From: Mobula birostris
Taxonomy: Eukaryota
Assembly (NCBI RefSeq): GCF_030028105.1
Contig: NC_092381.1
Coordinates: 73,186,505-73,250,504, forward strand
Direction: 5' to 3'
Length of the DNA stretch: 64,000 bases
Within the stretch, counting starts at the first letter, position 1; every line of letters begins with the position of its first letter. The notes under the pieces are model-generated. The model searched no databases and was not told where the DNA came from. It saw nothing but the letters and a program-made list of their open reading frames with translations. The translations under genes and the position numbers were made by a program. Positions 1 to 62,114 of the stretch are shown here, in pieces.

Positions 1-109
1 TCTGCAGTGGCAATGTATGATAATGCACCTTCACAAAATTCCCAGGAGACTGACATATGTCCAGAATCACAGTCCATGTAAGCATCAACGTTCTGGGGGA
101 CACACGGTA
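1..109 (-). CDS. Exon M4, unit U5 (truncated by window edge)
   Basis: Acceptor ttgcag|; VPCVPQNVDAYMDCDSGHMSVSWEFCEGALSYIATA. Confidence 0.85.
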
Positions 110-3100
110 CTGCAAGAAGAAAATTTATCAATAGAGGCTGAAGGGTACATAAAAGGCAACACTGCAAACAATGTATGTAAATTTTAGAAATGATTTTCAA
201 TACTTCACATGTTACCTGCTTTAACTGCCAGAGCAGAGCTGTGTGAGCTGTTACACTCCATGCGGACTGCCTGTACAGTTATGTAGTAATACAGTCCACA
301 GTACACATCAGAGACCTCACATTCAGTGCCTGTTGTATTCCAGGAGGCCCAGTGGCCGTTGGTCCCTTGTGCTGTTACGTGGTATGACTCTGAGCCATTG
401 CTGGGATCCCAAGACACTGAGACAGTGTTATTCTCGCAGTTGATGTGAGCTACCACATTCTGTGGGATACATGGTACTGTAGAAAGATGCACAGGAAACT
501 ATTGTAAACAATATAACATGATTACAATTACACAATATCAAATCTTACAATTTTTGTATAGAAATCATAGCTAATTTGTGCAAATCATATTACTACAACA
601 ATGAGCAAAACTGCAAACAATCTTTTTTGTAACATTATTTAAGACTGAATCTTAACAGAGAGTATATATTAGAGTGTTTCCTATATGATAATGGAAATGC
701 TACATACTTAACATGGCCTGAATATTATCTGTTTCTGTCTATTACCATAGGACCATATGATCATAAGTCATAGGAGCAGAATTAGGCCATTCAGCCCATC
801 AAATATACTCCGCTATTCAAGCATGGCTGATTCATTATTTTTCTTAACCCCATTATCCTGCCTTCTCCCTGTAACCTTTGATGCCCTGACCACAGAACAT
901 ATCAACCTCCACTTCAAATATACCCAATGGTTTGTCCTCCCTAGCCATCTGTGGCAATGAATTCCCCAGACTCACCACCCCCATCTCAGTTCAAATGAGT
1001 TATCCTTCTATTCTGAGGCTCTGCCCTCTGACCTTAGACTTCCCCACTATAGGAAACATCCTCCCATGTTCACTCTATCCAGGTCTTTCAATATTCGATA
1101 GGTTTCAATGAGACCACCCCTCTATATCTTCTAAACTCCAGCAAGTACAGGTCCAGAGCCATTTAACACTCCTCATACCCTTTCATTCCCAGAATCATTC
1201 TTGTGAACCTCCTCTGGACCATCTCCAGTGTCAATTCATAGCTAAGGGGCCTAAAGTTGTGCACAGTACTCCAAGTACGTTCTAACTAATGCCTTTTGAA
1301 ACCTTAGTATTGCATCCTTGCTTTTATATTCTAATCTTCTCAAAATGAATGCTAACATTGCATTTGTCTTCCTTACCCCTGCTCAACTTGCAAATTAATC
1401 TTTAGGCCATCCTGCACGAAGACTCCCAAGTCCCTTTGCGCCTCTGATTTCTGAATTTTCTCCCCATTTTGAAAATAGTTTACGCCTTTATTCCTTCTAT
1501 CTAAGTGCATGCCCATTCACTTCCCTACACTATATTTCACCTAACCAAGGTGGATTGTATATGAAAGAGATATCTTTGTCTCCTTGCCATGCTAAATATT
1601 TTCATAATCTCAGCAAGCTCTGAAATGATCAGAAAGCAAGGTCTATAAAGTGAGAGTGTTGAACCCTTATTAATGTTACATGATCACCAGATAAGACAGC
1701 ATTCCCAATGCACAGTTAAAGCACAAGCAAGAGGCTTCCTCTATCTGCCAGGATTATCTGCTACCCAATTGAGTTTTTTGCAATGATTACCTATGTTAAT
1801 TATTATTTTACTAACTGTTTGGTGTTGGATATTGATCTCCTGTTTTATCATGTTATGCAATTTTTGAAATTCATTTCTGATGCTCATTCTGTTGATTTTT
1901 ATTGAAAAGGAAAGAATCGTTACCTGTTTGAATTTCAAAAGCTGGACTTGGTAAGCTGGTGCAATTCTCGTCCATCGCTAACACAGTTATATTAAACATC
2001 TGGCCACATGGGAGGCCTACAATCTCACAGTTTGCTCCCGTTGTATTGCAGGAGTAGTCCTCTCCTTCCACTCCTTCTGCCATAGCAGTGTAGTACACTG
2101 CACCCTCGCTCTCCTCCCACCAAACTGATGTTGTGTATTTTCCACAGTCCAAGTGAGCACTTACATTCTGGGGACTACAGGGAGCTTAAGAAATATTAAA
2201 ACATAACAGAATGGAAAAAGGAATAGCCATACATTTACTTAAATTAACATGTATACATCAATAAATTAAAAAAATGGAAACTTCCAAATAAGACCATTAA
2301 TAACTCTTTCTGTGAACATGGGAAAGCTTTGTATGGGACAGTAGAAACATCAACAACTAAATGATTCAATCTGGCTACTGTGTGATAGTCACATATCTAG
2401 AAGTTGCCTTGATGAACTCCCTGGGTTTCACTACTATATAATACCTGTCGCACCAGACAGTCAGCCATTCTTGTCTGGTGCGTGGTGTCAGGATTAGTCT
2501 CCTTTCGGATTAACTGGGTCAGGATATGAATGTTCCTGACTTGACCCTCGTTTTTTACGAGGCCGAGTGGCTAGCTCAATGCTCAACCCGGCACGGATGG
2601 AAAGCGTGTTCGGGGGGTGGCCCGACTTGGATTCGAACTCGGGAGCCTTCACTCCGGAGTCCAGCGCTGATGCCACTGCGCCACCAGCCGGCCAGAGGCT
2701 AACTTGATCAGTACTGGAAGAAGTCAATCAATATCAGATATCGGAATCTAAAATAATTGATAATTTACCATTATTGGGGATTAAATCATTGAATCCTGCA
2801 TGGATTTATTAATTTCAAGGCATGCTTGATAGTATTCACATCATTAGGTGGAGGATTAGAGCACAGATATTGTTTCAGGTTGTTTACAGAAAAAAGTTGA
2901 AATGTTCAAAGTAAAATTTATTATCAGACTATAAACAAGTCACCACGTATAACCTGGAAGTTAGACGAAATGGTGTTGGAGCGGTTATGGTAACATAACA
3001 TGCAAAATCTAAACAGCAATTTGATCTTGTGTGGCTGACTAATAAGACTTAGGTACAACTGATAATTTTTATTTAATATTATGTCAATATACTGCTCTAG

Positions 3101-6100
3101 TATACTACTGAATTAAAATAATGGAATTGCATTTTTCGATTATATGTCATAGTCAATAATCAATGGATTACCTGTCTGTATTTCAACTGCTGAACTCAGA
3201 GAGTGGTTGCAGGTCCTGTCAGATGCTACAACATACACAGAATATAACTGGCCACAGAGCAGCATGGGTGTTCTACATGATGTTTCTGATGTGCTGCATG
3301 AAATGTTGCTCCCGTCAGCTCTTTCTGCAATGGCAGTGTACCACAGTGCTCCTTCACTATCATCCCACAATACAAGAGCTGTATTGAGGTTACAATCCAG
3401 TTGTACTTTGACATTCTGTGGGTCACAAGGGACTGAAAATAAGGTTGAAAGTTAAAGTGGATATCAGGCAATGGATCAAGCATTGTGGATTCAAATAAAC
3501 CGATTGACAAACTTACTAAGTTAGTAATAACTTTATTGGAGTTTATTATTCTAAATCATGGAAATGGTTAGCAATTTAAAGTATCAGTGTTGATGAGATT
3601 CACTCTCTAAATTTGTGAACATGATGTTTGAATTCATTGCAGATGATACAATTGTTAGCAGAAGTGGAATCCATGAACTGAAGGGCAGGGGCAGCATGGT
3701 TATCAAATGATTAACAGACAGTAATCAGAGGTGGTGGTAAATTGTTGGTTATCATACTGTAGAGAAGTATGTAGTCGTACTCCTATAGAGTTAGGACTTC
3801 ATTCAATAATTAATTAATTTTATATATTAACATCTTAGACAAGTCTGCCAAAGATTCTAAACATAGTATATAGTTAACAGCATGATGGGGAAGGATTTAA
3901 GTAGGACATAGAATTATGAGATGGATGAAAATACTAACAGTATCAAGTAATCCTTTTTTGAAGGAAAGATGAGGAAGAACATAAAATAAATGGTACAATA
4001 TCACCAGTAAATCTGCTGTTTAGAAACAAAGATCTTTGAAGCTAAACTTTTCTCATTTATTTATTATTTTTTTCCAGGGATTGGACATAGTGGGAAAGAC
4101 CAGTATTTATTTCTCATCCCTAATTGCCTTGAGAAGGTGGTGGTATGCTGCCTTCTTGAACTGCTACTGCAGTTTTGATTAAATACTTTCATAAAGCGCT
4201 TGGAGAAGCATTTCCAGAATTTATACTGAGCAGTGATGAAAGAGTAGTAATATATTTCAAAGTTGAGATTTGTGACTCAGAGGGGAAGCTTTAGGTTATG
4301 ACTTATTTGTGTGCATGTTGCATTTGTGCTTCATGGTGGCAGAGGTTACGGATCTGGGAGGTGACTTTAGGATAATTTTGGTAAGTCACTGCAATGCATT
4401 TTGTAGAAAGTACATATTGCAGCCACTGTACATTGGCGGTGAAGGAAATGGATGTTTAAGGTGGTAAATTGGATGCCAATCAAGTAGGTTGCTTTGTCCT
4501 GGAAGGTATTAAAACAGAAGTTACTGGCAGCACTCAGCATCTGTGGAGAGGGAAACAGAGTTAACGCTTCGGATTGATGATACTTCATCAGAATTTGGAA
4601 AAGTTGGAAATGTTATAAGCCACAGAAAAGTGAAAGTGGTGAAGCAAACAAAGTAGATGTTTGTGATTAGACTGAAGGTCAAGAGAGACTGAATAACACT
4701 GATATTATAGTTGCTAGCTGAAGGAGGGTGGCTATGGCTTGTTGATCACAGCTAATATATCCAGAGGAGAAGTAAATAGAGAAAAAAGAATGAGGGCCTG
4801 GAGAGAGGGAAAAATCAAAGCTGCAACTTTCCTGCAGTTTCTGGAAAACAAGACCATGAGAAATACTGGAAGTATTAAGCAAATCAGGCAGAACCTTAGA
4901 GAAGGAGTAGTTAACAACACCAATGGATGACCTTTCATCAGAACCAGAATTTTCAGATATAGATAAAAAAAGCTGGTTATCTGAAAATTTTCAGTTAAAT
5001 ATTGAGCTTTGATTCCCCCTTCCTTGTAAACTAAAACATCTTTTCAACTTCCCCAGGTCTCATGAAAGGCCAACAATGTGAAATGCTATTTGCCTGATTG
5101 ATGAGAATTTCCAGTATTTTGGATTTCCACCGGTTGCAGCTTTTTGATTTTATTCATGATAGTTTTGAGCTACTTCAGTGCTGCTGGTGGTGGATTCATC
5201 TGAGAAAGTGGGTAACTTTCCATCGTATGCTTGACTTGCACCTTGTGGATGGTCGAAAGGCTTGTGATGTCAAGTGGTGAGGACTCTTGTGCTCACGTGA
5301 CTCATTCATTTGAATTTCCCATGAATGGTGACCCCAGGATGTTGAAGCATGCAGGATACAATGTAATGGTGGTGACATTGAACATCAGATGGAGGTAATC
5401 AGGTCCTCTTGTTGCAGATGGTCAGTGCCTGGCATTGAACATCAAAGGGAGGTAATGAGGTCCTCTTGTTGTAGATGGTCAGTGCCTGGCATTGAACATC
5501 AAAGGGAGGTAATCAGGTCCTCTTGTTGTAGATGGTCAGTGCCTGGTATTGAACATCAAAGGGAGGTAATCAGGTCCTCTTGTTGCAGATGGTCAGTGCC
5601 TGGTATTGAACATCAAAGGGAGGTAATGAGGTCCTCTTGTTGCAGCTGGTCAATACCTGGCACTTTGGTGACTTGAAAATTATTTGCCACTTAGCTTGCA
5701 TATTGTCTAGCTCTTACAAAATGCTGGCAAGGGTTGATTTATTTCCTGAGGAGTTGAAAATGAAGCTAAGCATTCCTACTTCTGACCTTAAGAAAGGAAA
5801 GACATTGGTGGCTGGGCTGAGGACACTGTTCTGAGGAACTCCTGCAGGGTGGGCTGATTGACATCCTGCAACCATAACCACCTTCCTTTGTACAAAGTAT
5901 AACTGAAACATTATCCTTGATGCCAACTGACTTCAATTTTTCTATAACTTCTTGACGCCAGACTCGACAAAAACTGCTGTTTTATTGAGAACCTTCTAGA
6001 ATTCAACTAATACTGTAATGAGGTGTTAAGTCAATTGATCCTGACAAATTCCCAAAGTGGCCATCAGATTACTAGTGAATAAGTACCACTGTTGACAAGA

Positions 6101-9100
6101 CCTTCCATCACTTTACTGATTAACCTCAGGAGCATTGGCCATAATTAGCCAGTTTGGATTTATTTTGCACTTTGTGAACAGGCAAAAAGCCAACTTAATT
6201 CACAATAAAAAAAAGTTGCAGATGTTGGGTATCTGAAAGAAAAAAATAAATAAAGTAGAGGAAACCTTCAGCCAGCTAGGTAGTGCTTGTGGAAAGAGAA
6301 AGAGATTTAACTTTCAGATCTTTCAACAGTTACTGCCTAGCTTCTTGAAAACATAAAGCATACTTCATTTGTATTTTAATGTTTCATATTGTCAGGTGTA
6401 TGCCTTTGTTGGGTGTATTACACGGTTGCAATTGCACTGAAACCGCCTGGCATATGGCAGAATTAGCTCTGGAACTCAGGTTTCAGTATTACAGATTAGA
6501 TATCCCAACATGGGAGCTGAACAGCCATTCCTGCACTGTTAGTCCTGGCATCCTGGGTGAGTTACATATTAATTTCAGTGTGTACCACAGATTGCAATCA
6601 ATTCTACCCATTAAGTTTCATTGACCATATCTTTGTATACACAATTCAATTAAAACCATGGAATATAAATCTAATATCCCTCCTACGCTGTAGTTCTCCT
6701 GCCCAGTGACTCAGGTTAAAAAGAGCCCAATAGATTTAGTGCATGCGAGATTGGTTAGAGATTATGACTTGGTGCATTGGTTTTAGTGCAGGCTCACTTA
6801 TTCTCAGTAGACATGAATAATTTTGACTTAACAAGCCTGTCAATAATAGTGACAAGCCAGTCTTCTCACATGCATGGACAATGTGACCATAGAAGAGTTC
6901 TCCTCCAGGTGGTAAAAAAGCAAGGAAAAAAAATTCTGAATCTTTCTAAATTTCTGGTACTCCCCATTACTGGTATACACTGTTAAATTCTGCACATTAC
7001 ACTTTACAAAGCATGCAAAGTACATGGAGATTTAGTGGAATGATAGCGAAGAATGAGGAAATTCCATTATGTAAAGGCACTGAAGCAAGTGGAGATGGTG
7101 ATGAGTTCAATATTCATTTTATTAAGTACACGGTCAGAATTCCAAACTTCTGGCTGGAGCTAAAACAATGTTTATCATTCTATGGTGGTCCTTACGAATA
7201 GCTTTGATCGTTTCCAGGGTGAGCATGGACAGTGGTTGATTTAGAAATACACCTGTGAAAATGCTGCAATCCCGTACAAATAACATAGGGAAATGATCCA
7301 TTAATCAGAACTCACACGGTAGCAAATATTACTCCCATTACACCACTGGAAAAATCTCGAGTTGAGGTAGAAATGACATTTTGAAAAATGTTTAACATGA
7401 GGATAATTTTTAAAAAGTGAGAAATATACACAATGATATATTGCCAGTGGATTGCAAGACTTCATTTGCTGATCTGTCACAAAAAGATTTCAGGAAATGA
7501 GCAATACCTGAATGTACATTCACCACTGCTCTCTGGGGCCTCCTGCAGATGTCATCTGTTGCTAGGACAGAGATTGTATAATATTCACCACACTGCAGGT
7601 CCTGGATTTGAGCCCTTGTACCACTTGTGTTGAATAAAGCTGTAACTCTTTGACTGTCTCGAACAGTCACAGTGTATAACTTTGCTCCAGCAGTCTCATC
7701 CCACCAGAAGGATATTGTGCTCAAATCACAATTAAGCTCAGCCGTTAGGTTCTCAGGAATGCAGGGTGCTATTTAGAAAATAAATATCAATTCCTGCTGT
7801 CCTGCAGAAACACAAAATGAATACACATGGGAATTATTTCCTTGCTGAATGTTACTTACCGGTTTGTATTTGGACAGAAGTACTCGAAATGCCATGCCGG
7901 CTGTAACTCAGTGTCGTTACGGTTATGTTATAGGACTGTCCACAGTGTAAATCCAGCATTTCATGGTGTGTCTCTGTGGTGTTGTGTGAGTGTATATGAC
8001 CATCACTGCCTTCTGCAGTTACATCGAATGAGGTCGCTCCACCAGTCCTTCCCCAGGACACCACCACTCTATTGGAGTTACAATCCACATTGGCAATGAT
8101 TTCATCCGGGGCACATGGTGCTGTGGAAAACGAAATACAAAAATTAAACTCCACTACCTGCTAGCAAATCTCTGAAGTTAAACATCTTCAAATTTGTTCT
8201 ACATTTGTCCACTCAGCCCAGCCATATTAGAATCAAAGGAATTCCAGGTCAAGAGAGAGGGTTGAGAAAGTCTGCAGATGCTGAAAATCCAGAGCAACAA
8301 ACACAAAATGCTGAAGGAACTCAGCAGGTCAGGCAGCATCCATGGAAATGAATTAACAGATAACGTTTTGGGCCAAGACCTTTCTTCAGGACAATACTTA
8401 GGGTCAGTGTGATTGGCACCAAGTTTGAAAACTAAGTCATCAATGTTGACTGGAAAAATTAGAAGGATTCTGTTTCCAAAATCCATAGAGAATTTTGGAA
8501 TTTATGGAGATGAGTGAAAGTTGAACACCATGCAATGATTGGAAATGAAATCAGTGGAGCTTGGGAGTGCACTTCCATAGCAACCTGTCATCACACCGAG
8601 AAAAGGAAACTGAGAGACAGGCTAGAGTGACTAAGTTGACAGACAGTGCTTCTGTGTCCGTTTAGTTTAAAACCAATTGCTTGAAAAAGTAGGCACATCA
8701 GAATGATGGACAATTGGCCACTCCAATGCCCGGTTATAACAGTGAGTTGCTGTGTACCATCTCTGTATACTTCAGCATTGCAATGCAGTTTTAACTTTAA
8801 CCACCCAAATGTAAATTTAGCAGGAGGGCAATTTAAAACAATGTTGGAATAATTTACAATGATTATTGTTCAATCGAGTAAAGATTACTAGGCACATAAT
8901 AGCAGTTCGGCGACGTCTGTTCCAGTTAACGATACTGAAGAACACTTTTGAAGAAGTATGCACTACTGTGTCACCAGGGAACTGCCTTTTCTAACCAAAT
9001 AATTCAGTTTAATGACTTTTCTTCAGAGATCGCTGTACATAGCCTGGCTGCTCACTTTTCCATGACTCCTACGCTGCAAACACTTCAAAAATAATCTCTT

Positions 9101-52635: not shown

Positions 52636-52698
<63 letters not shown>

Positions 52699-55600
52699 CT
52701 AAGGAGCCTAAGACTTTTGCGTAGTACTGTAGTAATTTTATGTATTGCTCTGCACTACTGCCACAAAAAAAACTAATTTCATGACGCGTGTGTGATGGTC
52801 AACCTGATTCTGATCTGGGTCTTTATTATGGACTGACAGTGGGAGGGGGGCAGGGAAAAGGGAGTCATGACTGGGAAAAGGGGAAGGGAGAGGGGAGGAA
52901 GCAAGAAGCATCAGAGGGACATTCTGTCATGATCAATAAACCAATGTTTTTGGAATCAAATGACCTAGCCTGGTGTCTCAGGGCTGGGTGTGTCTGCACC
53001 CGTACCACACCCCACCCCTGGCACCCTTTCTCTGCCACCTGTCCCACACCAGTCCTGCGGTGCTCCACCCTTGCCATTCCCAATGACCTTTGCTCCCGCC
53101 AGATTTACAAACTTGCTTTCCACTCCACGTTGACAAATGCAGTATTGTGCAAAAGCCTTCAGCACCCTGGCTATAAGTATGTGCCTAAGACGTTTGCGCA
53201 GTACTGTAGGTTGGAAGAATAAACTTGAACAGGCAAAGCCACAATGGGGGAGGGGTTTGATCAACTCAGCAATAGTTCTCCATTTCAAACATGGTAATAC
53301 ATTCTAACTTCCTATTTTGAACACCTATAGACATATACTTCATTTGAAATACTAAAGGGAGTGCGTTTGTAGAACCACCAAGAATTAATCTGCATAGCAG
53401 CTGAGTCTAGTGCTGACCTTTACAATGCTATATGGGGACAATGCCTGTGCAGAAATTTAGCATAAGTCAGCCACACACTGTTGCCAAATATTGCATTATA
53501 CAATTTAGAAAAGGCACTAAAAAAGAGGAAAAGAATGTGGAAAAGCATGTTCCTGAGGGAATAGATGGTTAAAATGAAAGGGTTTGGAGACTTCAAAGGG
53601 CAGAATGTTTGTCTGAACAGCCCAGAAGATGGGTGTGCACTGGCCAAAGTGTAAAGCCCCAGGAAATGAAATCAAGTGTCTGGAAATGCATGGCACAGTC
53701 CTGATGAGAGTGAAGGAACGTTTTAGAATATAGAACATAGAACTTAAAAGCACAGTGTTGTGCTGACATTGTAACCTACTTTAAGATCAATCTAACCCTA
53801 TCTTTTTACACAGCCGTCCATTTTTCTATCATTCATGTGCCCATCTAAGAGTTTCTTAATGCCCCTGATGTATCTGCCTCAATACCCTCCCCTGCCAGGG
53901 CAGTTTTAAGCACTCTTTGCGTAAATTTACCTCTGACATTCCCCCTGTACTTTTTAGATCAGCACACAGAAAGACGATAGAAATCTGATAAAGCTGTAGC
54001 TAAATGCAGTAGAGGTTAGAAATCAGGAAGCAGATCTTAACAGAAATCTGGTCTTGAAGTAAGAAGACCACAAAACTACAACACATTACCAAATTATCTG
54101 TACATCTTAACAAGAGCACTACATGGATTTAATCTTAAAAAAGCAGAGTCCTACAATTTTCATGCAGTATGAAATCTTCAATTACATTAGATAGATAGAT
54201 AGATATACTTTATTAATCTCGAGGGAAATTTGGTTTCGTTACAGCCGCACCAACCAAGAATAGAGCGTAAGTATAGCAATACAAAAACCACAAACAATCA
54301 AACAACAAAATGCAAACTATGCCAGATGGAAAATAAGTTCAGGACCAGTCTATTGGCTCAGGGTGTCTGACCCTCCACGGGAGGAGCTGCTCGTTCGATG
54401 GACACAGGCATTAACCCTGTGGATTGGTTGGGGTAGGTTTTAAATCACCATATTCCAGAGAAGATACCTACCAGTTTCAAATTCTAACTGAGAGCTTTGT
54501 GAGGTGTCGCACACACCATCCAGTGCTGTCACAGTTAAATTATACACCTGTCCACAGTGTAGGTTGGTTATCTGACATTCGGTATTGGCCGTCTCGCAGG
54601 AAACTGGGTGCCCATCACTTCCTTCTGCTGTTGCCGAGTAAGAGACTGCACCTTTAGTGTGGCTCCACAATACTGAAGCATCGTTTGTGTCACAGTCTAC
54701 ATGGACATCGAGGTTCTGTGGGATGCACGAAACTAGAAAAGGCAAACAGAAGAGATGAAGAGCAGTTGTTGAGCAGCTGGTAAATTTATGAGTTGTTTAT
54801 TTAAGTACTACCTTTCAATTAGTACCACTAACACGAGAAAATCTGCAGATACTGGAAATCCAAACAACACACACAAAATGCTGGAGGAACTCAGCAGGCC
54901 AGGCAGCATCAATGGAAAAGGGTAAACAGTCAATGTTTCGGGCCGAGACCCTGCAACAGGACTGGGAAAAAAGGATGAGATTAAGAAGGTGGGGGAAGGG
55001 GAGGAAGAAGTACAAGGTGGCAGGTGATAGGTGAAACTGGGAAGGGGGAAGGGGTGAAGTAAAGAGCTGGGAAGTTGATTAGTGAAAGAGATAAAGGGCA
55101 GGAGAAGGGGGAATCTGATAGGAAAGGGTAGAAGGTCATGGAAGAAAGGGAAGGGGGAGGAGCACCAGAGGGAGGTGATGGGCGTAATTAGTACCTCTAT
55201 TTAATTAATACAATTTTTGGTGGGACTGCATCCAGCGTATCATGTATAAATATTGCTCTTTACCAAAGAAAGTACAATTGTCATTGAAGGACTGTAGTAA
55301 AGGTTCAATAGATTGACTCCTTGGATTGATTAATGACGAGAGAGTTGAGTTGACTTGGCCTATGTTCTCAGGAGTTTAAAGGAATGAAAAGAGATCACAC
55401 TGAAATTTACAAAATTTCACTAAGCTGGATGCAGAGAAGATGTTTACTCTGGCTAAGGAAACTAGAATCTGAGTTTACAATGTCAGAACAAAGGACTGTC
55501 ATGAGTGCAGAGCATGGGTGGACCCAAATGCAGGACACAAACACATTTAGTAGTGTTAACAAAAATAGAGTTTATTAATAGTTACTAGGAAAGCAGGGAA

Positions 55601-58600
55601 GCAAGGATTGTACAGAGAGACATCAAGGAGTGAATGAAGCAGAAGCGGGAATATGCGTGGCTGGAGTTGGGCTCGGACCCTGGACTTAGACTGGAACTCA
55701 GGGCCTGGGCTTGGCATAGGACTCGGGACCTGGACTTGGACTTGGACTTGGACTTGGACTGGGACTTGGAACTTGGGACCCCGACTTGGACTCGGACAGG
55801 GACTTGTAACTCAGGACCCAGGCTTTAACTTGGACAGGGACTTGGAACTCGGGACCCAGACTTGGAACTTGGAACATCGGAGCCTGGACTTGGAACTTGG
55901 AACATCTAAACACAGAGCCGGGACTCTTCCTTGGACACAGGACACAGAGCAAGGACTCTTCCTTGGATACAGGACACAGAACACAGAACATGAAGAGACA
56001 GTTCCCCACTTAGGGTAGCGGCAAACAGTCGGACCTACCCAGTGGAGATGAACATATGAAGAGACAATTCCCAACTCAGGGTAGCAGCAAACAGCCGGAC
56101 CTACCCTGCAGAGGCGAGGACACAAAGAGACAGTTGCCAACTCAAGGTAGCAGCAAACAGCTGGACCTACCCATTGGAGACGAGGACACGAAGAGACAAG
56201 ACCACACAATGATAGACAGTTCTTTTATCTTGGCACGAAGTGGCTCCGAGTAGCGGCAAGCTCTCGATTTGGCCCCGGAACTACAGACAGCGGCTCTAGC
56301 CTCACTCTAGCAGGTTAACTTGATGGACCCACTCTGGCGAGGTAGCTTAGTGGCTCGCTCAGGCGAGGTAACTTCACAGGCTGGCTCTGGCGAGGAGAGG
56401 CGACTTACTGGCACTTGCTTCGGGGAGAAGACTTGACTTGCTCCAGCGATGTGACTTGCTCACACTTACTTCAGTGACGTGAGGTGACGTCGGCTGACGG
56501 TCTAGCACTGAGTAGCTGAAAGCCAACACTATATACTGCCTGTTCAGCTGAGAATCAAGTGCCTTTAATTACAGAGCCCAAGAAACACAGGGACACAATG
56601 AATTAAAGGAAAACAAGGAGTCAACGGTCCCGATCACGACAAAAAGGAAATTTAAAGGGAACCAGGGAATAAGCGATCCGGTCCGTGAGAAGGACAGGAT
56701 GTTTAGGACTGAGAAAAGAGAGCTTTCTCCATTCAGAATTCTCTTCCCAGGAGACCAGTGGAGACTGAATCACTGAATTTACTCAAACGATGTTTGAGAG
56801 ATTTCTGGATATCAAGAAAGTCAAAGAAAGTGCAGGAATTGCACTGAAATGGATCAGTGATGATCTTGCTAAATTACAGAGCGACTTCAGAGGGTCAGAT
56901 GTCCTACAGCTGCTACTATTTGGGTTCTTATTTGAACTTTCTCTGTCCGTAAGTTTTGCTGGCTAACTGTATTTTGGCCAGTGGAGAAATCAGTGTTTGT
57001 GTGATTGATAGAGAAATTAGAGATTCAGAAATTGGATGACCCTGCAGTTACCTGTTCTCATTGTGACCGAAGGACTTTCAGCAGAGTCACAGGTGTCATC
57101 GTGCGCAAGGACTGTGACGGTGTAGGTCTCTCCACAGGACAGGTCAGTGATGTCACACAGCGTATCGTTGGCGCTGCATTGCTGCACGTCGCCTCCTACT
57201 GCAGTGGCAATGTATGATGATGCACCTTCACTGAACTCCCAGGAGACTGACAGAAATCCAGCATCACAGTCCATGTAAGCATTGACATTCTGGGGGACAC
57301 ACGGTACTGCAAGAAGGAAAAACATAACATGAAACTACTGTAGCGTCATAACTGTATGATGCAAAAAAGTACACAATTCCTCACTGTGTGTAGAATTTAT
57401 TATTATATATAGGTTTCCTGACATTACCTGTTTTAACTGCCACAGCAGAGCTGTGTGAGCTGTCACACTCCATGCGGACTGCCTGTACAGTTATGTAGTA
57501 ATACAGTCCACAGTACACATCAGAGACCTCACATTCAGTGCCTGTTGTATTGCAGGAGGCCCAGTGGCCATTGGTCCCTTGTGCTGTTACGTGGTATGAC
57601 TCTGAGCCATTGCTGGGATCCCAAGACACTGAGACAGTGTTATTCTCGCAGTTGATGTGAGCTACCACATTCTGTGGGATACAAGGTGCTGTACAAGAGA
57701 GAAAGGATAAATTAAAATACATCACAATACAGAATTGAAATGAGTAATGCAATAGAGGTTTCAACTTGATTAGAACCTGTTGATCAACAGCTGAATAGTT
57801 GAGTTTATGGTACAGATTTACTAGCAATTATCAATAAACAAATGCAAGTTATAATTCATGTTGCACAGTCAATACTGATTCCTACTTAGGACTTAGTAAC
57901 CACAATGGCTATAGTTTTACCTGTCTCAGTTGTAAAAGCTGGGCTTGGTAAACTGGTGCAATTCTCGTCCATTGCTAACACAGTTACACTGTACATCTGG
58001 CCACATGAAAGTCCTGTGACCTCACAGTTTGCTTCTGTTGTATTGCATGAATATCTGTCTCCTTCCATTCCTTCTGCCATGGCAGTGTAGACCACTGCCC
58101 CCTCACTCTGGTCCCACCATACCGACGTTATGTGTGTTGCACAGTCCAAATAAGCATTGACATTCCGGGGACTGCAAGGGGCTGAAATTGTTTGAGAAAC
58201 AAGGTAGATAAAGGCACTGTCAGAACGGTATTGAAAAATCAAGTTTGGTTACAAAGAAGTAGCATCGGAAATTGATTAAAATAAATTCAATGTGATTATT
58301 ATAATTATCATGATAAATAGTAGGAAAATATCAAAAACTGGAAAAAAAACTGTTTTAGTGAACAGTAAAATAATTTAAAATCATGTAGAGTTACTGCCAA
58401 TTGGGACTGACCGTCAACATGTTATCTTGAAAAATCTAACATTCTGATGATTATACAAAGGGACTGTAGTTAGTGTAATTTGTTTCCCAAATATTTGATT
58501 ATGTTTCTCAAAAGGAACATTCAGGAGTATACGTATATGTATTTTGGTTACTCCAATAGTGATGAGTTGAATGTGGCCAATCCAGGAACCAAAAATGAAT

Positions 58601-61600: not shown

Positions 61601-62114
61601 ATGGATAGTAATAAATGATTTGATCAGAAGAGATTGAACTGATCACATTGGAACAACACCTTATCTGAGTAAAACTTAAACCAAGTTATTGCAGTTCACT
61701 CGAGCATTATGTCCATGCATCAGTACTTAATGGCATTCAACTTAGCAAGTTAATAAGCTTCTGTACTAGTTTAATAAACAAACAAATAAATAAATAAATC
61801 TTATTGATTTTCTCGAATGCAATGTGCCACAGGTCAGTAAAACAATGAGTTACCTGTCTGAATGTTAACCACTGAGCTCAGAGAATGGTTGCAAGTGCTG
61901 TCAGATGCTGCAACATACACAGAATATAACTGGCCACAGAGTAACAGAGGTGTTCTACATGATGTTCCTGATGTTCTACATGATACAATGTTTCCATCAG
62001 CTCCTTCTGCAAAGGCAGTGTACCACAGTGCTCCTCTACTGTAGTCCCACAACACCAGAGCTGTATTGAGGTTACAATCCAGTTGTACTTCAACATTCTG
62101 TGGCTCACAGGGGA
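1..62114 (-). CDS. FNDC7-like: Giant multi-exon FNDC7-like protein (tandem Cys-rich fibronectin type III modules); internal part only, 39 coding exons in window
   Basis: Repeated 85-87 aa modules with motif PCxPxNx..DC....VxW....GA..Y...AEG..G....C.T....C....LxCGxxYxxxVxA....C.S..S......T (FN3 Trp and Tyr-corner, FNDC7-type cysteines). All exons are AG|..|GT bounded and phase 1. No start or stop seen, so the gene extends beyond both ends. Confidence 0.85.
216..476 (-). CDS. Exon M3, unit U5 (261 nt)
   Basis: AG/GT bounded; VPCIPQNVVAHINCENN...AVKA. Confidence 0.9.
745..1545 (-). mobile_element. 5'-truncated CR1-clade LINE fragment
   Basis: Tail cataagtcataggagcagaattaggccattcagcccatc and decayed RT C-terminal region; homologous to 35460-35930 and 58781-59423. 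Confidence 0.75.
1924..2184 (-). CDS. Exon M2, unit U5 (261 nt)
   Basis: AG/GT bounded; APCSPQNVSAHLDCGKYTTSVWWEES...EIQT. Confidence 0.9.
2540..2694 (-). mobile_element. tRNA-derived SINE
   Basis: Minus strand A box TGGCGCAGTGG and B box GAGTTCGAATCC, then ACGCTTTCCATCCGTGCCGGGTTGAG; homologues at 36440-36630 and 49990-50235. Confidence 0.7.
3172..3432 (-). CDS. Exon M1, unit U5 (261 nt)
   Basis: AG/GT bounded; VPCDPQNVKVQLDCNLNTALVLWDDS...EIQT. Confidence 0.9.
4510..5150. mobile_element. Old Penelope-like inverted terminal remnants
   Basis: Decayed cagcatctgtggagagggaaacagagttaacg...ttcatcagaa with an inverted counterpart near 5040-5150. Confidence 0.45.
5376..5660. repeat. 57-bp minisatellite, 5 copies
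   Basis: Unit cattgaacatcaaagggaggtaatcaggtcctcttgttgcagatggtcagtgcctgg starts at 5376, 5433, 5490, 5547 and 5604. Confidence 0.95.
7508..7768 (-). CDS. Exon M9, unit U4 (261 nt)
   Basis: AG/GT bounded; APCIPENLTAELNCDLSTISFWWDET...NVHS. Confidence 0.9.
7860..8120 (-). CDS. Exon M8, unit U4 (261 nt)
   Basis: AG/GT bounded; APCAPDEIIANVDCNSNR...HIHSHNTTETHHEM...QIQT. Confidence 0.9.
8265..8393 (-). mobile_element. Penelope-like terminal fragment
   Basis: ctgcagatgctg...ggaactcagcaggtcaggcagcatc...gggccaagacc, same family as 43866 and 54827. Confidence 0.7.
9170..9424 (-). CDS. Exon M7, unit U4 (255 nt)
   Basis: AG/GT bounded; VPCPPQNVQADCDGVTAFVSW...EIHT. Confidence 0.9.
10100..11320 (+). 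mobile_element. Cluster of SINE and CR1 3'-end fragments
   Basis: RGDLIEIYKIMKAVDKV (CR1 RT C-terminus) at 10990-11040; CR1-type tails gaagggcc...gtttctgtgctgt at 10200, 10480, 10735 and 11285. Confidence 0.65.
12196..12456 (-). CDS. Exon M6, unit U4 (261 nt)
   Basis: AG/GT bounded; APCAPDNISINLDCDTRSTSVTWAK...ETET. Confidence 0.9.
12655..13235 (+). mobile_element. Penelope-like element 3' fragment (GIY-YIG C-terminus plus terminal repeat)
   Basis: Encodes decayed SDMSVYSLFYCHNEAALRLEEQHLI...QPNNMNI, then a pyrimidine-rich tract, CTGATGA...GAAAC motif and the common terminus. Confidence 0.75.
13446..13706 (-). CDS. Exon M5, unit U4 (261 nt)
   Basis: AG/GT bounded; VSCIPQNLDVHVDCDTND...FEFST. 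Confidence 0.9.
13859..14348. mobile_element. Tc1/mariner-type MITE
   Basis: Imperfect TIRs cactcagtggccattttaatag ... ccaataaagtggccaatga. Confidence 0.7.
14365..15245 (+). mobile_element. Decayed CR1 LINE RT 3' fragment
   Basis: ggagagtgcaaaagaggttcaccagaatgttgcc (ERVQKRFTRMLP-like). Confidence 0.75.
15517..15771 (-). CDS. Exon M4, unit U4 (255 nt)
   Basis: AG/GT bounded; VPCPPQNVDAHMDCDSGHMSVSW...TVRT. Confidence 0.9.
15878..16138 (-). CDS. Exon M3, unit U4 (261 nt)
   Basis: AG/GT bounded; VPCIPQNVVAHINCENN...AVKT. Confidence 0.9.
16403..17378. mobile_element. Tigger/pogo-like non-autonomous DNA transposon carrying a nested Penelope palindrome
   Basis: TA|cagtggattctggttaattgg ... ccaattaaccagaatctgtgg|TA inverted termini. 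Confidence 0.7.
16999..17141. mobile_element. Short fold-back Penelope-derived insertion
   Basis: Flanked by direct repeat ATTCCTCCATT (16988-16998, 17142-17152); internal palindrome atctatggaaaaaaatacagtc / gactgtacttttttccatagat. Confidence 0.75.
17755..18015 (-). CDS. Exon M2, unit U4 (261 nt)
   Basis: AG/GT bounded; APCSPQNVSAHLDCATHS...EIQT. Confidence 0.9.
18948..19208 (-). CDS. Exon M1, unit U4 (261 nt)
   Basis: AG/GT bounded; VPCDPQNVEVQLDCNLN...WDHSEGALCY...EIQT. Confidence 0.9.
19320..19960 (+). mobile_element. Highly decayed CR1-like remnant
   Basis: gagagggtgcaggggagatttaatagga and tttttacacaag motifs. Confidence 0.45.
21321..21581 (-). CDS. Exon M9, unit U3 (261 nt)
   Basis: AG/GT bounded; APCIPENLTAELNCDLNT...NVHS. 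Confidence 0.9.
21679..21939 (-). CDS. Exon M8, unit U3 (261 nt)
   Basis: AG/GT bounded; APCAPDEIIANVDCNFNR...QIQT. Confidence 0.9.
22400..22710 (+). mobile_element. LINE 3' fragment (Rex/RTE-like)
   Basis: aacagcttcttcccctctgccatcagatttctgaatgg and tail gccagtgatattaaacctgattctga; similar to 44660-44940. Confidence 0.6.
23254..23508 (-). CDS. Exon M7, unit U3 (255 nt)
   Basis: AG/GT bounded; APCPPQNVQTVCASVTAFVTW...EIRT. Confidence 0.9.
23905..24230. mobile_element. Old Penelope-like inverted pair
   Basis: ctgcagatgctgtaaatctgaaataaaa...ggtcaggcagcatctgtgg with a decayed inverted arm at 24120-24230. Confidence 0.5.
24233..24908 (-). mobile_element. Tigger/pogo deletion derivative with CENP-B-type HTH transposase remnant
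   Basis: TA|CAGGTTGAGTACCCCT ... AGAGGTACTCAACCTG|TA; ORF 24412-24693 EYSAGWLQKFEKRHGIKFLKICGDKA. Confidence 0.9.
26417..26677 (-). CDS. Exon M6, unit U3 (261 nt)
   Basis: AG/GT bounded; APCAPDNISTSLDCDTRS...QAKT. Confidence 0.9.
28045..28370 (-). mobile_element. CR1 LINE 3' fragment
   Basis: MRGVDRVNASRLFP...TRGHGLRV...FFTQRVVRVWNELP. Confidence 0.9.
28556..28816 (-). CDS. Exon M5, unit U3 (261 nt)
   Basis: AG/GT bounded; VSCIPQNLDVHVDC...FKFNT. Confidence 0.9.
29019..29273 (-). CDS. Exon M4, unit U3 (255 nt)
   Basis: AG/GT bounded; VPCVPQNVNAYMDCDAGFL...TMKT. Confidence 0.9.
29389..29649 (-). CDS. Exon M3, unit U3 (261 nt)
   Basis: AG/GT bounded; APCIPQNVVGHINCENN...AVKA. Confidence 0.9.
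29838..30098 (-). CDS. Exon M2, unit U3 (261 nt)
   Basis: AG/GT bounded; APCRPQNVSTYLNCATHT...EIQT. Confidence 0.9.
30954..31214 (-). CDS. Exon M1, unit U3 (261 nt)
   Basis: Hand-translated, open frame (not in the ORF track in this frame); VPCEPQNVTVQLDCNLNTALVLWDYSKGALWY...EIQT. Confidence 0.9.
32151..32383 (-). pseudogene. Degenerate pseudo-exon of module M9, unit U2
   Basis: Aligns to intact M9 (tctcctgcagatgt, gatttgagcccttgtatcacttgt, ttagattctcag) at the expected position about 97 nt from M8. Acceptor AG->AA, donor GT lost, about 28 nt net deletion. Confidence 0.85.
32481..32741 (-). CDS. Exon M8, unit U2 (261 nt)
   Basis: AG/GT bounded; APCAPDEIVANVDCNSNR...QIQT. Confidence 0.9.
35460..35930 (-). 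mobile_element. CR1 3' fragment interrupted by an opposite-strand CR1 tail (about 35503-35661)
   Basis: Homology to 745-1080; the insert ends in (ttctatgt)n. Confidence 0.7.
36440..36630 (-). mobile_element. tRNA-derived SINE ending about 15 nt from the U2-M7 donor site
   Basis: Minus strand TGGTGTAGTGG ... GGTTCGAATC ... acgctttccatc. Confidence 0.65.
36645..36899 (-). CDS. Exon M7, unit U2 (255 nt)
   Basis: AG/GT bounded; APCPPQNVHADGVGVTAFVTW...EIHT. Confidence 0.9.
37375..37635 (-). CDS. Exon M6, unit U2 (261 nt)
   Basis: AG/GT bounded; APCAPEHTSTSLDCDTRS...ETET. Confidence 0.9.
38324..38584 (-). CDS. Exon M5, unit U2 (261 nt)
   Basis: AG/GT bounded; VCCIPQNLDVHVDC...FEFST. Confidence 0.9.
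38779..39033 (-). CDS. Exon M4, unit U2 (255 nt)
   Basis: AG/GT bounded; VPCVPQNVNAYMDCDAGFL...TVKT. Confidence 0.9.
39149..39409 (-). CDS. Exon M3, unit U2 (261 nt)
   Basis: AG/GT bounded; VPCIPQNVVAHINCENN...WASWNTT...AVKT. Confidence 0.9.
39778..40038 (-). CDS. Exon M2, unit U2 (261 nt)
   Basis: AG/GT bounded; APCSPQNVSAHLDCATHA...NIET. Confidence 0.9.
40302..40562 (-). CDS. Exon M1, unit U2 (261 nt)
   Basis: Hand-translated, open frame; VPCEPQNVTVQLDCNLNTALVLWDYSKGALWYNAVAEG...EIQA. Confidence 0.9.
41075..42057 (-). mobile_element. Second Tigger/pogo derivative (same family as 24233) with a nested CR1 tail at about 41235-41380
   Basis: TA|CAGGTTGAGCACCCCTTATC ... GATAAGGGGTGCTCAAAC; internal homology to 24330-24900. 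Confidence 0.85.
42551..42811 (-). CDS. Exon M9, unit U1 (261 nt)
   Basis: AG/GT bounded; APCIPENLTAELNCDLNT...NVHS. Confidence 0.9.
42916..43176 (-). CDS. Exon M8, unit U1 (261 nt)
   Basis: AG/GT bounded; ASCAPNEIVAEVDCNSSK...QIQT. Confidence 0.9.
43866..44425 (-). mobile_element. Young 5'-truncated Penelope-like element
   Basis: Direct repeat CCGTGGTC (43858-43865, 44426-44433); GIY-YIG C-terminal remnant (RLEEQHLIF), hammerhead-like motif and terminus. Confidence 0.8.
43976..44013 (-). ncRNA. Minimal type I hammerhead ribozyme motif (one core substitution)
   Basis: AGTC-CTGACAA-AGGGTCTCGGCCC-GAAAC-GTC-GACT; consensus core CUGANGA carries G->A. Confidence 0.65.
45025..45620 (-). mobile_element. 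LINE 3' fragment (Rex/Babar-like)
   Basis: ARTSRLKNSFIPQ remnant; tail motif aaatatctttatcgtcattgca. Confidence 0.6.
47409..47663 (-). CDS. Exon M7, unit U1 (255 nt)
   Basis: AG/GT bounded; APCPPQNVHADGVGVTAFVTW...EIQT. Confidence 0.9.
48197..48389. mobile_element. Fold-back Penelope-derived insertion with 14-bp target duplication
   Basis: GAAAGAAATTTGGT at 48183-48196 and 48390-48403; inverted arms of about 55 bp. Confidence 0.85.
49080..49865. mobile_element. Nested inverted Penelope-derived elements
   Basis: Inner arms about 49240-49370 and 49650-49768 are reverse complements; older outer arms at 49080-49155 and 49770-49865. Confidence 0.8.
49715..49752 (+). ncRNA. Minimal hammerhead ribozyme motif (core mutated)
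   Basis: CAGTC-CTGCAGA-AGGGTCTCGGCCC-GAAAC-GTC-GACTG; helix I CAGTC/GACTG intact. Confidence 0.6.
49990..50235 (-). mobile_element. tRNA-derived SINE with adjacent (GTGC/GT)-rich simple repeat (49912-49982)
   Basis: Minus strand TGGCACAATGA ... GGGTTCGAAAC ... acgctttccatccgtgctgggttgag. Confidence 0.65.
50613..50870 (-). CDS. Exon M6, unit U1 (258 nt, one codon shorter)
   Basis: AG/GT bounded; APCVVKYISTNLDCDTRS...CQSISTIVETKT. Confidence 0.88.
51640..52180 (-). mobile_element. Tx1/L1-like LINE fragment
   Basis: SVEERCRPAHHRLQEYVLRDTLKFGADTTRAQWEK resembles a Tx1 ORF2 C-terminus. Confidence 0.55.
52613..53208. mobile_element. Composite element with two short Tc1-like palindromic MITE units (52613-52730, 53139-53208)
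   Basis: cagtactgtacaaaagtctt ... aagacttttgcgtagtactg and cagtattgtgcaaaagcctt ... aagacgtttgcgcagtactg. Confidence 0.7.
52642..52695. repeat. (CA)n microsatellite
   Basis: About 27 CA units. Confidence 0.98.
54472..54732 (-). CDS. Exon M5, unit U1 (261 nt)
   Basis: AG/GT bounded; VSCIPQNLDVHVDC...LEFET. Confidence 0.9.
54827..55185 (-). mobile_element. Penelope-like terminal fragment with 10-bp target duplication
   Basis: AATTAGTACC at 54817-54826 and 55186-55195. Confidence 0.8.
55497..56690. mobile_element. Probable solo LTR inserted in a decayed CR1; contains (GGACTT)n and internal repeats
   Basis: 5-bp duplication AGGAC (55492-55496, 56691-56695); termini TGTCATGA...CCGTGAGA (near TG..CA inverted ends). 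Confidence 0.7.
57052..57306 (-). CDS. Exon M4, unit U1 (255 nt)
   Basis: AG/GT bounded; VPCVPQNVNAYMDCDAGFL...TMRT. Confidence 0.9.
57428..57688 (-). CDS. Exon M3, unit U1 (261 nt)
   Basis: AG/GT bounded; APCIPQNVVAHINCENN...AVKT. Confidence 0.9.
57921..58181 (-). CDS. Exon M2, unit U1 (261 nt)
   Basis: AG/GT bounded; APCSPRNVNAYLDCATHI...TTET. Confidence 0.9.
58781..59423 (-). mobile_element. Young CR1 LINE 3' fragment
   Basis: Intact-looking MLKGMDRVDVAKLFP...TRGH...FFSQRVVNLWN; duplication AGTAAAAG at 58773-58780 and 59424-59431. Confidence 0.9.
59795..60265 (+). mobile_element. Interspersed repeat, probable LINE/SINE 3' end
   Basis: CpG-rich block ending ...gacaataaaagaggactgcgtgtcttcataatctaa; family assignment uncertain. 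Confidence 0.4.
60922..61292 (-). mobile_element. CR1 LINE 3' fragment
   Basis: MRGDLIKVYKIMRGTDRLNASRLFP...FFTQRVVRV. Confidence 0.9.
61854..62114 (-). CDS. Exon M1, unit U1 (261 nt)
   Basis: AG/GT bounded; VPCEPQNVEVQLDCNLN...NIQT. Confidence 0.9.

What the first reader, a model, noticed from the sequence alone, without database searches (positions are those of the whole stretch)
1..62114. Nine-domain super-repeat building a giant Cys-rich FN3 (FNDC7-like) protein
Seen: 40 exon positions follow the order M1..M9 without exception for about 4.4 cycles. An intact unit is 7x261 + 2x255 = 2337 nt (779 aa), and about 3,325 aa are encoded in this window with no terminus. Established: FNDC7-type proteins are poorly characterised extracellular FN3 arrays, and titin is the classic case of domain super-repeats setting a structural period. 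Inference: this may be a secreted molecular-ruler or filament protein with a fixed nine-domain period, possibly a lineage-specific expansion.
Basis: partly seen in the sequence, partly recalled or inferred. Interest (0 to 1): 0.82.

Follow-up and report, generated by a model that had tools for sequence, protein, structure and literature searches.

The report
Shark-and-ray giant disulfide-stapled repeat protein
This is the middle of a gene for a very long, probably secreted rod protein of sharks and rays, built from a nine-block unit copied about five times, whose blocks appear to be locked to each other by sulfur bridges; the nine-block rhythm looks like a trace of old gene duplication rather than a fixed measuring stick.

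Summary
There are 40 exon positions on the minus strand in strict M1-M9 order: 38 whole, one cut by the window edge and one decayed. They encode 3,325 aa and form nine fully supported clades. The window is the repeat core of a ray's 'fndc7rs1' gene; the Hemitrygon protein is 5,774 aa, with a likely signal peptide and no membrane anchor. The nine-mer is not species-specific: sharks, skates, electric ray, sawfish and stingrays share it, with about five units. A fixed-period ruler is not supported. Unit 2 here has eight domains, other elasmobranch models have 7-, 8- and 10-domain units, and bony-vertebrate relatives have unrelated periods (1-7, once 9) or none. Copies are homogenised position by position (M3 yes, M1 and M2 no). 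New here: over 6,001 domain junctions, Cys13 of one domain is lost together with Cys74 of the next (41 distinct junction types), not with cysteines of its own domain. This implies disulfide staples between domains and a covalently stiffened FN3 rod, with a weaker M7|M8 joint once per unit. Fish relatives mark lateral-line support cells, so a role in the sensory gel is plausible but unproven.

The parts
61854..62114 (-). Exon U1M1, 261 nt; first domain of the repeat core (matches domain 15 of Hemitrygon P0011)
57921..58181 (-). Exon U1M2, 261 nt
57428..57688 (-). Exon U1M3, 261 nt
57052..57306 (-). Exon U1M4, 255 nt
54472..54732 (-). Exon U1M5, 261 nt
50613..50870 (-). Exon U1M6, 258 nt (one codon shorter; the same short domain is in Hemitrygon unit 1)
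47409..47663 (-). Exon U1M7, 255 nt; lacks Cys13
42916..43176 (-). Exon U1M8, 261 nt; lacks Cys45/52/74
42551..42811 (-). Exon U1M9, 261 nt; lacks Cys45/52
40302..40562 (-). Exon U2M1, 261 nt
39778..40038 (-). Exon U2M2, 261 nt
39149..39409 (-). Exon U2M3, 261 nt (Trp at the Cys45 position)
38779..39033 (-). Exon U2M4, 255 nt
38324..38584 (-). Exon U2M5, 261 nt
37375..37635 (-). Exon U2M6, 261 nt
36645..36899 (-). Exon U2M7, 255 nt; lacks Cys13
32481..32741 (-). Exon U2M8, 261 nt
32148..32383 (-). Decayed U2M9 pseudo-exon: acceptor lost, several deletions and frameshifts; skipped in database model P0014
30954..31214 (-). Exon U3M1, 261 nt
29838..30098 (-). Exon U3M2, 261 nt
29389..29649 (-). 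Exon U3M3, 261 nt
29019..29273 (-). Exon U3M4, 255 nt
28556..28816 (-). Exon U3M5, 261 nt
26417..26677 (-). Exon U3M6, 261 nt
23254..23508 (-). Exon U3M7, 255 nt
21679..21939 (-). Exon U3M8, 261 nt
21321..21581 (-). Exon U3M9, 261 nt
18948..19208 (-). Exon U4M1, 261 nt
17755..18015 (-). Exon U4M2, 261 nt (the domain folded)
15878..16138 (-). Exon U4M3, 261 nt
15517..15771 (-). Exon U4M4, 255 nt
13446..13706 (-). Exon U4M5, 261 nt
12196..12456 (-). Exon U4M6, 261 nt
9170..9424 (-). Exon U4M7, 255 nt
7860..8120 (-). Exon U4M8, 261 nt
7508..7768 (-). Exon U4M9, 261 nt
3172..3432 (-). Exon U5M1, 261 nt
1924..2184 (-). Exon U5M2, 261 nt
216..476 (-). Exon U5M3, 261 nt (Trp at the Cys45 position)
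1..109 (-). Exon U5M4, cut by the window edge; the gene continues through U5M9 and six unique C-terminal domains in model P0014

Best explanation
The window is the repeat core of one elasmobranch gene of the giant FNDC7-like family (named fndc7rs1 in Hemitrygon). SHOWN: each exon is one FN3 domain; a nine-exon block was duplicated to about five units before sharks and rays split; copies have since been homogenised position by position, and single exons have sometimes been lost. STRONGLY INFERRED from co-loss of cysteines: each domain has one internal disulfide (C45-C52) and is stapled to the next domain by C13(n)-C74(n+1) and probably C59(n)-C2(n+1). With almost no linker, this makes an acidic, heavily N-glycosylated, covalently stiffened rod of about 66 domains, roughly 200-250 nm long (estimate). 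The M7|M8 junction has only one staple, and M8 and M9 lack the internal disulfide, so each unit has one softer stretch. INFERRED, weaker: the rod is secreted and acts as a long strut or scaffold in an extracellular gel, most likely that of lateral-line-type sensory organs. Total length and stiffness matter; the number nine is the size of the block that happened to be duplicated, not a spacing that must match a partner.
For: Single gene with termini: Hemitrygon P0011 (5,774 aa) is colinear with the window unit by unit; Amblyraja P0025 has the same ends. No 19-residue hydrophobic segment above 1.64 in P0011; pI 4.4; 136 sequons. Purifying selection between units: dN/dS 0.34. Shared order in Scyliorhinus (2 species), Heptranchias, Amblyraja, Leucoraja, Rhinoraja, Narcine, Pristis, Hypanus, Hemitrygon and Mobula hypostoma; Stegostoma and Cetorhinus models cover M4-M9 only. 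Conversion: dS about 0.05 for M3, M4 and M9 against 0.33-0.39 for M1 and M2. The same-unit Hemitrygon copy is closer than any copy in the same genome for M1 5 of 5 and M2 5 of 5, but for M3 0 of 5; the M3 tree needs only the minimum 6 changes for 7 taxon labels. Staples: in 6,001 junctions from 176 named homologues, C13 and next-domain C74 were both absent in 266, and singly absent in 32 and 30; C13 and C59 of the same domain were both absent in 0 (C13 alone absent in 296); C2 and C74 of the same domain were both absent in 3. The 266 double losses fall into 41 clusters at 40% identity, against 8 and 9 for single losses. P(C74 absent | C13 absent) is 0.90 at lag +1 and 0.15-0.26 at lags -1, 0, +2 and +3. 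FN3 fold: pLDDT 93, TM 0.71-0.85 to the listed FN3-type matches. Free period in the family: of 116 non-elasmobranch giants, 79 have no recent internal repeat and 21 have 8 or more duplicated domains, with periods 1, 2, 3, 4, 5, 6, 7 and 9. Expression of relatives: zebrafish fndc7a and fndc7rs4 in neuromast support cells (PMC6363392); fndc7a marks neuromasts in two more atlases; fndc7a, rs1, rs2 and rs4 share a co-expression module with the lateral-line support marker tnfsf10l3 (PMC9851615 supplement); mouse Fndc7 is 138-fold enriched in P1 cochlear supporting cells (PMC5137903).
Against: No expression or transcript data for any shark or ray were seen. The database splits this locus into at least three models (P0013, P0015, P0014). 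Disulfides were inferred from sequence only: the models gave no coordinates, and the six-and-a-half-domain model had pTM 0.49. C59-C2' rests on only 3 double losses. In the window, M7 keeps a Cys near position 13 in units 3-5 although M8 lacks C74; this is an exception to the rule. fndc7rs1 is not among the four fndc7 genes in the neuromast gene list of PMC6363392, and the fndc7 module is not the module of the ear-gel genes otog, tecta and zpld1a. Orthology to one particular zebrafish paralogue was not resolved: only the ends map. About five units (42-44 domains) recur in four lineages despite homogenisation, which hints at a constraint on length. The link between short introns and homogenisation was not significant (Spearman 0.26, p=0.50).
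Confidence: 0.6

Rival explanations
1. Titin-like ruler or template: the nine-domain unit (about 30-35 nm, estimate) sets a spacing that matches a periodic partner or lattice, with the single-stapled M7|M8 joint as the repeating landmark.
For: The order M1-M9 is unchanged between sharks and rays. About five units in four lineages. M8 lacks C74 at every M7|M8 junction listed for 17 elasmobranch models, so there is a real structural period. Most shark units are a clean nine.
Against: Decayed U2M9 in the window. Unit sizes are 8,8,9,9,9 in Hemitrygon and 8,9,8,9,9 in Amblyraja; M5 and M6 are missing from the same unit in two Scyliorhinus species; Heptranchias has an extra domain between M9 and M1. 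Shark-versus-ray identity of repeat domains (69-78%) is no higher than that of unique C-terminal domains (64-82%). No partner is known. Titin's claim rests on a 43-nm match to myosin and on deletion experiments (PMC10665226).
Confidence: 0.12
2. Surface-barrier protein of skin or gill mucus: an acidic, glycosylated, protease-resistant rod whose repeats turn over quickly, as in mucin-like or decoy proteins.
For: 22% Ser+Thr, about two sequons per domain, pI 4.3-4.4. Many teleost relatives carry very young arrays (19 of 21 at 87-100% median identity) with different periods. All named hits are fish or amphibians, apart from one stray mammal label on a tilapia record.
Against: The expression statements found point mostly to neuromast and ear support cells; one lists fndc7 as higher in the ventral caudal fin of swordtails, together with a zpld1-like gene. 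The search for fish mucus plus this protein name gave nothing relevant. No Pro/Thr/Ser-rich mucin tracts.
Confidence: 0.2
3. Not one protein: a cluster of smaller genes, a decaying locus, or an assembly artefact.
For: The database has at least three models for this locus, and several other elasmobranchs are annotated in pieces. One exon has decayed.
Against: No stop in 39 exons, canonical splice sites throughout, and no terminal domain inside the window. dN/dS 0.34. Units span 9.3-21.6 kb with largely unalignable long introns and dS up to 0.6. Single full-length models exist in Hemitrygon and Amblyraja.
Confidence: 0.05

Closest known systems
Giant FNDC7-like proteins of fish and amphibians (fndc7rs1, fndc7b; automatic annotation only)
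   Same: Same six-Cys FN3 module of about 87 aa, same overall plan; the first and last domains map to sturgeon, gar, lungfish and salamander proteins. Hemitrygon fndc7rs1 is 86-98% identical at matching positions.
   Different: The nine-mer is confined to elasmobranchs: no bony-vertebrate domain exceeds 56% identity to a window domain. Bony relatives have no repeat or their own young periods. No paper on the giant forms' structure was found.
Titin A-band super-repeats (PMC10665226, passages)
   Same: FN3 tandems duplicated as multi-domain blocks; domains cluster by position; junction features repeat with the unit.
   Different: Titin is intracellular, mixes Ig and FN3 domains, and has a period matched to myosin (43 nm). 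Here the protein is probably secreted, all FN3, the period varies from 7 to 10, and rigidity would come from disulfides rather than linker sequence.
Multi-domain cassette duplication in repeat proteins, e.g. nebulin (PMC1553488, abstract and passages)
   Same: Repeats expand by several domains at a time, often in the middle of the array, as here.
   Different: Here one exon is one domain, all phase 1-1, and homogenisation differs by position within the unit.
Fibronectin / tenascin FN3 arrays
   Same: Best sequence matches in PDB (E 1e-10); extended tandem FN3.
   Different: Low identity (14-25% in the structure matches). No RGD in P0011 or P0014. Their FN3 domains are essentially free of disulfides (recalled). 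A disulfide between FN3 domains is recalled for the insulin receptor, but not as a staple at every junction.
Mammalian FNDC7
   Same: Family name; enriched in cochlear supporting cells in mouse.
   Different: Short (buffalo 811 aa, 13 exons; PMC8615036). It was not among the listed named hits and was not compared here; it may be a paralogue.

Membership tests
Fibronectin type III domain | Seven-strand beta-sandwich; Pfam fn3 match | tested here: met
   fn3 is the best Pfam hit for 9 of 9 positions, 6 of 9 above the gathering score; model has 7 strands, pLDDT 93; TM 0.71-0.85 to the listed FN3-type structures
Giant FNDC7-like (fndc7rs1/fndc7b type) | Long tandem of six-Cys FN3 modules, one per exon | tested here: met
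Giant FNDC7-like (fndc7rs1/fndc7b type) | N-terminal signal peptide and Cys-poor FN3 domains; distinct last two domains; no membrane anchor | tested here: met
   Outside the window; seen in P0011, P0025 and the end of P0014. The signal peptide and the three Cys-poor domains were judged by eye, not by a predictor.
Orthologue of zebrafish fndc7rs1 in particular | Domain-by-domain colinearity, or synteny | tested here: inconclusive
   Only the first and last domains map to any bony-fish paralogue; the best in-register nine-domain window reached p<0.05 in 2 of 13 proteins, uncorrected; synteny not available
Mammalian FNDC7 orthologue | Reciprocal best match or tree placement | not tested
   No named amniote FNDC7 among the listed hits (12 and 76 further hits were not listed)
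Titin-type ruler super-repeat | Domains cluster by position; duplication at the level of the unit | tested here: met
Titin-type ruler super-repeat | Invariant number of domains per unit | tested here: not met
   8-domain unit 2 in the window; 7-, 8- and 10-domain units in other models, which could partly be annotation skips
Titin-type ruler super-repeat | Unit length matches a periodic partner; deleting units shortens a structure | not testable with these tools
   No partner known
Concertedly evolving tandem array | Copies cluster by species rather than by unit | tested here: inconclusive
   Met for M3 and for Scyliorhinus M1, M3 and M9; not met for M1 and M2 in window versus Hemitrygon: a mosaic
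Acellular sensory-gel proteins (otogelin, tectorin, cupulin) | Presence in cupula or otolithic membrane | not testable with these tools
   Only indirect expression data for relatives; no vWD or ZP domain among the Pfam hits

The most novel reading that the evidence does not exclude
Aquatic jawed vertebrates have an undescribed class of extracellular filament: FN3 chains about 200 nm long in which every domain is disulfide-stapled to the next. In sharks and rays a single-stapled joint recurs once per unit and tunes the stiffness of the lateral-line cupula or the ampullary gel. This would supply a missing structural protein of these sensory gels, with a built-in mechanical period.
Probability: 0.2. 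Interest if true: 0.8.

Novelty: new variant of a known kind. Interest (0 to 1): 0.55.

Why it matters
The gene is already predicted automatically, and multi-domain duplication is a known process, so the repeat alone is of moderate interest. Three things add value. (1) The cysteine co-loss pattern predicts a rod stapled at every junction, an architecture I did not find described for FN3 arrays, and one easy to test on a two-domain fragment. (2) A family of 3,000-6,700-aa proteins across sharks, bony fish, lungfish and amphibians is hidden under wrong names (mucin, fibronectin, phosphatase, adhesin) and has no functional study in the searches run; relatives mark lateral-line support cells. (3) One gene shows, side by side, exons that keep their unit identity and exons that are homogenised within each species, a clean natural experiment on gene conversion.

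Tried and rejected
Mapping the nine-mer onto one block of bony-vertebrate proteins gave no clear result: only the ends map; the in-register test reached p<0.05 in 2 of 13 proteins, uncorrected, and the gar window did not put M7 on its best-matching domain. Short flanking introns as the cause of homogenisation: not significant. The multi-domain model (pLDDT 86.6, pTM 0.49) and its PDB search said nothing about junction geometry; all whole-chain TM scores were 0.34 or lower. The Hemitrygon table had an index shifted by one and was discarded and redone; the N and C labels are shifted likewise, while the M labels are unaffected. Intra-domain pairing C13-C59 and C2-C74, which geometry alone would allow, was rejected by the co-loss counts. 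Literature searches: 'fndc7' 54 papers, 40 listed, none about elasmobranchs or repeats by title; 'fndc7rs' 2; name plus fish mucus 3, irrelevant; super-repeat plus concerted evolution 1, spider silk; fndc7a/b plus cupula: none of the 30 listed held fndc7; ampullae of Lorenzini proteomics 3 reviews, listing only; interdomain disulfide plus FN3 2, irrelevant; fndc7 plus shark terms: none of the 10 listed held fndc7. PMC9750624 (passages) holds only cancer expression data. No complex prediction was run, as no partner is proposed. The prokaryotic genome scan was not used, being irrelevant to a vertebrate gene. Chimaera, lamprey, coelacanth and amniote relatives were not identified or compared.

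Full report
1. Observation. The description is accurate. A profile built from the window's own domains finds 39 strong hits on the minus strand and one frame-shifted remnant. All intact exons have AG acceptors and, where whole, GT donors, are phase 1-1, and are 261 or 255 nt (one is 258); together they make 9,976 nt, or 3,325 aa. Domains at the same position are 87% identical, against 40% between positions. The nearest neighbour is the same position for 38 of 38, and the nine positions are clades with 99-100% bootstrap. The 2,337-nt unit is exact for units 3 and 4. Unit 2 has lost its M9, whose remnant at 32148-32383 lacks an acceptor, has frameshifts and is 76-78% identical to other M9 exons. 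No other decayed exon was found. Units span 9.3-21.6 kb, similarity between units is largely confined to exons and the short introns, and dN/dS between units is 0.34, so this is neither an assembly artefact nor a dead locus.

2. What the gene is. The closest named proteins are 'FNDC7-like' models of rays, nearest Mobula (95-100% per domain for P0008). Record P0014, encoded by this locus, starts inside U1M8, skips U2M9, completes unit 5 and ends after six unique domains. The Hemitrygon protein P0011, named fndc7rs1 (5,774 aa), gives the whole plan: a signal-peptide-like start and about three Cys-poor FN3 domains (both judged by eye), 14 unique Cys-rich domains, five units, and six unique domains. 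The window's first exon is the first domain of the repeat core. There is no membrane-spanning segment and no RGD; the protein is acidic (pI 4.3-4.4), with 6% Cys and about two N-glycosylation sequons per domain. The module is an FN3 domain by Pfam, by prediction (pLDDT 93, seven strands) and by structure search; no close solved relative exists.

3. Age and spread. The same order M1-M9 is found in skates, an electric ray, a sawfish, stingrays, and the sharks Scyliorhinus and Heptranchias, with the M4-M9 part in Stegostoma and Cetorhinus. It therefore predates the shark-ray split (over 250 million years, recalled). Long models hold 42-44 repeat domains: 9,8,9,9,9 here, 8,8,9,9,9 in Hemitrygon, 8,9,8,9,9 in Amblyraja, and 6,9,9,9,9 in S. 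canicula, whose model lacks its N-terminus. One Amblyraja isoform and the S. torazame model show parts of six units. Giant relatives occur in sturgeons, gar, bichirs, teleosts, lungfish and amphibians. None of their domains exceeds 56% identity to the window's. Of 116 named non-elasmobranch giants (three unnamed rows dropped; some are isoforms or close species), 79 have no recent internal repeat, 16 have fewer than eight duplicated domains, and 21 have their own arrays with periods of 1, 2, 3, 4, 5, 6, 7 and once 9. Block duplication with an arbitrary block size is therefore routine in this family, as described for repeat proteins generally (PMC1553488, abstract and passages).

4. How the array evolves. 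Synonymous distance between units is about 0.05 at M3, M4 and M9 but 0.33-0.39 at M1 and M2. Against Hemitrygon, the same-unit copy is closer than any copy in the same genome for M1 (5 of 5) and M2 (5 of 5), never for M3 (0 of 5), and mixed elsewhere; the M3 tree sorts by taxon. S. canicula copies are 81-99% identical to each other and 69-78% to the window. The units are old, and gene conversion homogenises some positions. M3-M4 and M8-M9 are joined by short conserved introns, which would give longer conversion tracts, but the correlation over nine positions was not significant.

5. Mechanism: staples between domains. The module has six conserved cysteines: 2, 13, 45, 52, 59 and 74. Over 6,001 adjacent pairs from 176 named homologues, C45 and C52 are lost together within a domain (502 double losses). 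C13 is never lost with C59 of its own domain, and C2 is lost with its own C74 in 3 cases. Instead C13 is lost together with C74 of the NEXT domain (266 double, 32 and 30 single losses), and the pattern holds after dereplication at 70% (150; 19 and 3) and 50% (40; 9 and 2). The double losses form 41 clusters at 40% identity, and the association is specific to lag +1 (0.90 against 0.15-0.26). C59 and next-domain C2 are almost never lost; their 3 double losses agree with pairing but are few. On the model's strands, C13 and C59 lie in loops at the C-terminal pole and C2 and C74 at the N-terminal pole by FN3 topology (established knowledge), so all four meet at the junction. The inference is a chain locked by two disulfides at each junction. 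Because most domains carry the same four junction cysteines and every exon has the same phase, most blocks can be duplicated or skipped without breaking frame or staples, which explains the freedom of period. Within the nine-mer, M8 lacks C74 at every M7|M8 junction examined, and M8 and M9 lack C45 and C52: one weaker stretch per unit. M7 keeps a nearby Cys in units 3-5, which is either an exception or a spare thiol. None of this is shown by structure: the models return no coordinates, and the multi-domain model had pTM 0.49.

6. Function. No data exist here for sharks or rays. Relatives point to hair-cell organs: zebrafish fndc7a and fndc7rs4 in neuromast support cells (PMC6363392, passages); fndc7a as a neuromast marker (PMC11789645 and bioRxiv 10.1101/2024.01.29.577871, passages); fndc7a, rs1, rs2 and rs4 in one module with tnfsf10l3, apart from otog, tecta and zpld1a (PMC9851615, section 5 and supplement rows; the cell type of the module is my inference from that one marker); mouse Fndc7 138-fold enriched in P1 cochlear supporting cells (PMC5137903, table). 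Against this, rs1 is absent from the neuromast gene list in PMC6363392, and which paralogue corresponds to the ray gene is unresolved. Supplement files 12-14 of PMC6363392 and 13-16 of PMC9851615 were not searched, and bioRxiv supplements were closed; they may hold more expression data. My best guess is a secreted strut in the gel over lateral-line-type sensory cells. Scaling from titin's 43 nm per 11 domains (PMC10665226, passages) and allowing for shorter domains gives about 30-35 nm per unit and 200-250 nm in all; this is an estimate.

7. Ruler or not. It resembles titin's super-repeat in origin, but fails the test of invariant period, has no known partner, and its repeat domains are no better conserved than its unique ones. 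The recurring total of about five units is the best remaining argument for a length constraint. The non-repetitive fndc7b type, with 49-50 detected domains in 36 of 79 proteins and colinear from sturgeon to gar and herring-like fish, is the better candidate for a fixed-length molecule.

8. Novelty and verdict. The gene is automatically annotated, and the process that made the repeat is known. I found no description of the nine-mer, of the giant family's structure or of the staple pattern in ten searches of an open-access library; subscription papers are not covered. New variant of a known kind; interest 0.55.

Noticed in passing
window 58877-59149, 60998-61411, 63747-63998, about 28035-28368 (minus strand): Fragments resembling the 3' end of CR1/L2-type LINE retrotransposons in introns; the label is recalled, not from a database call.
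   Followed up: no
window 5376-5662; 52642-52695; 55719-56199: Intronic tandem repeats: 57 bp x5 (94% match), (CA)27, and a cluster of 6-66-bp arrays.
   Followed up: no
window 43878-44138, 49159-49416, 49583-49863, 54827-55099, 12895-13234: A dispersed intronic repeat family, about 250-350 bp, 67-89% identical, in both orientations; probably a SINE.
   Followed up: no
window 39149-39409 and 216-476; 18948-19208; 21679-21939; 38324-38584; 1-109: Odd cysteines: Trp replaces Cys45 in both U2M3 and U5M3; extra Cys in U4M1, U3M8, U2M5 and U5M4. Possible free thiols or chain-to-chain links.
   Followed up: partly
units 2 and 5: Non-adjacent units 2 and 5 share variants: M3 99%, M6 98%, M8 95% identity, pointing to long-range conversion or shared history.
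   Followed up: partly
window 32148-32383: The decayed M9 keeps a stretch more like shark M9 than like the ray M9 copies beside it (13 and 12 versus 11 of 22 residues), suggesting an old loss; weak.
   Followed up: partly
P0028, P0029, P0035 domain 40; P0093 domain 20; P0037 domain 28: M7's best match in three salamanders, a caecilian and gar is the domain before a junction that also lacks C74; the single-staple joint may be older than the nine-mer. Statistical support is weak.
   Followed up: partly
P0006 (Heptranchias): Two non-repeat domains, then M7 M8 M9, an extra domain, then M1 M2 M3: may preserve the order before duplication.
   Followed up: no
Family members are annotated as receptor phosphatase beta, mucin, fibronectin, tenascin, serine-rich adhesin or G surface protein, which hides the family.
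   Followed up: no
P0025 cluster (Amblyraja): Isoform models differ by eight domains and join M8 to M1 or M9 to M2: real unit-skipping splicing or reads mis-mapped between near-identical copies. Skate models also have 6 rather than 14 unique domains before the repeat.
   Followed up: partly
M8 exons: M8 is His-rich (about 5 per domain), with His at the positions where other modules have the internal Cys pair; a possible metal site.
   Followed up: no
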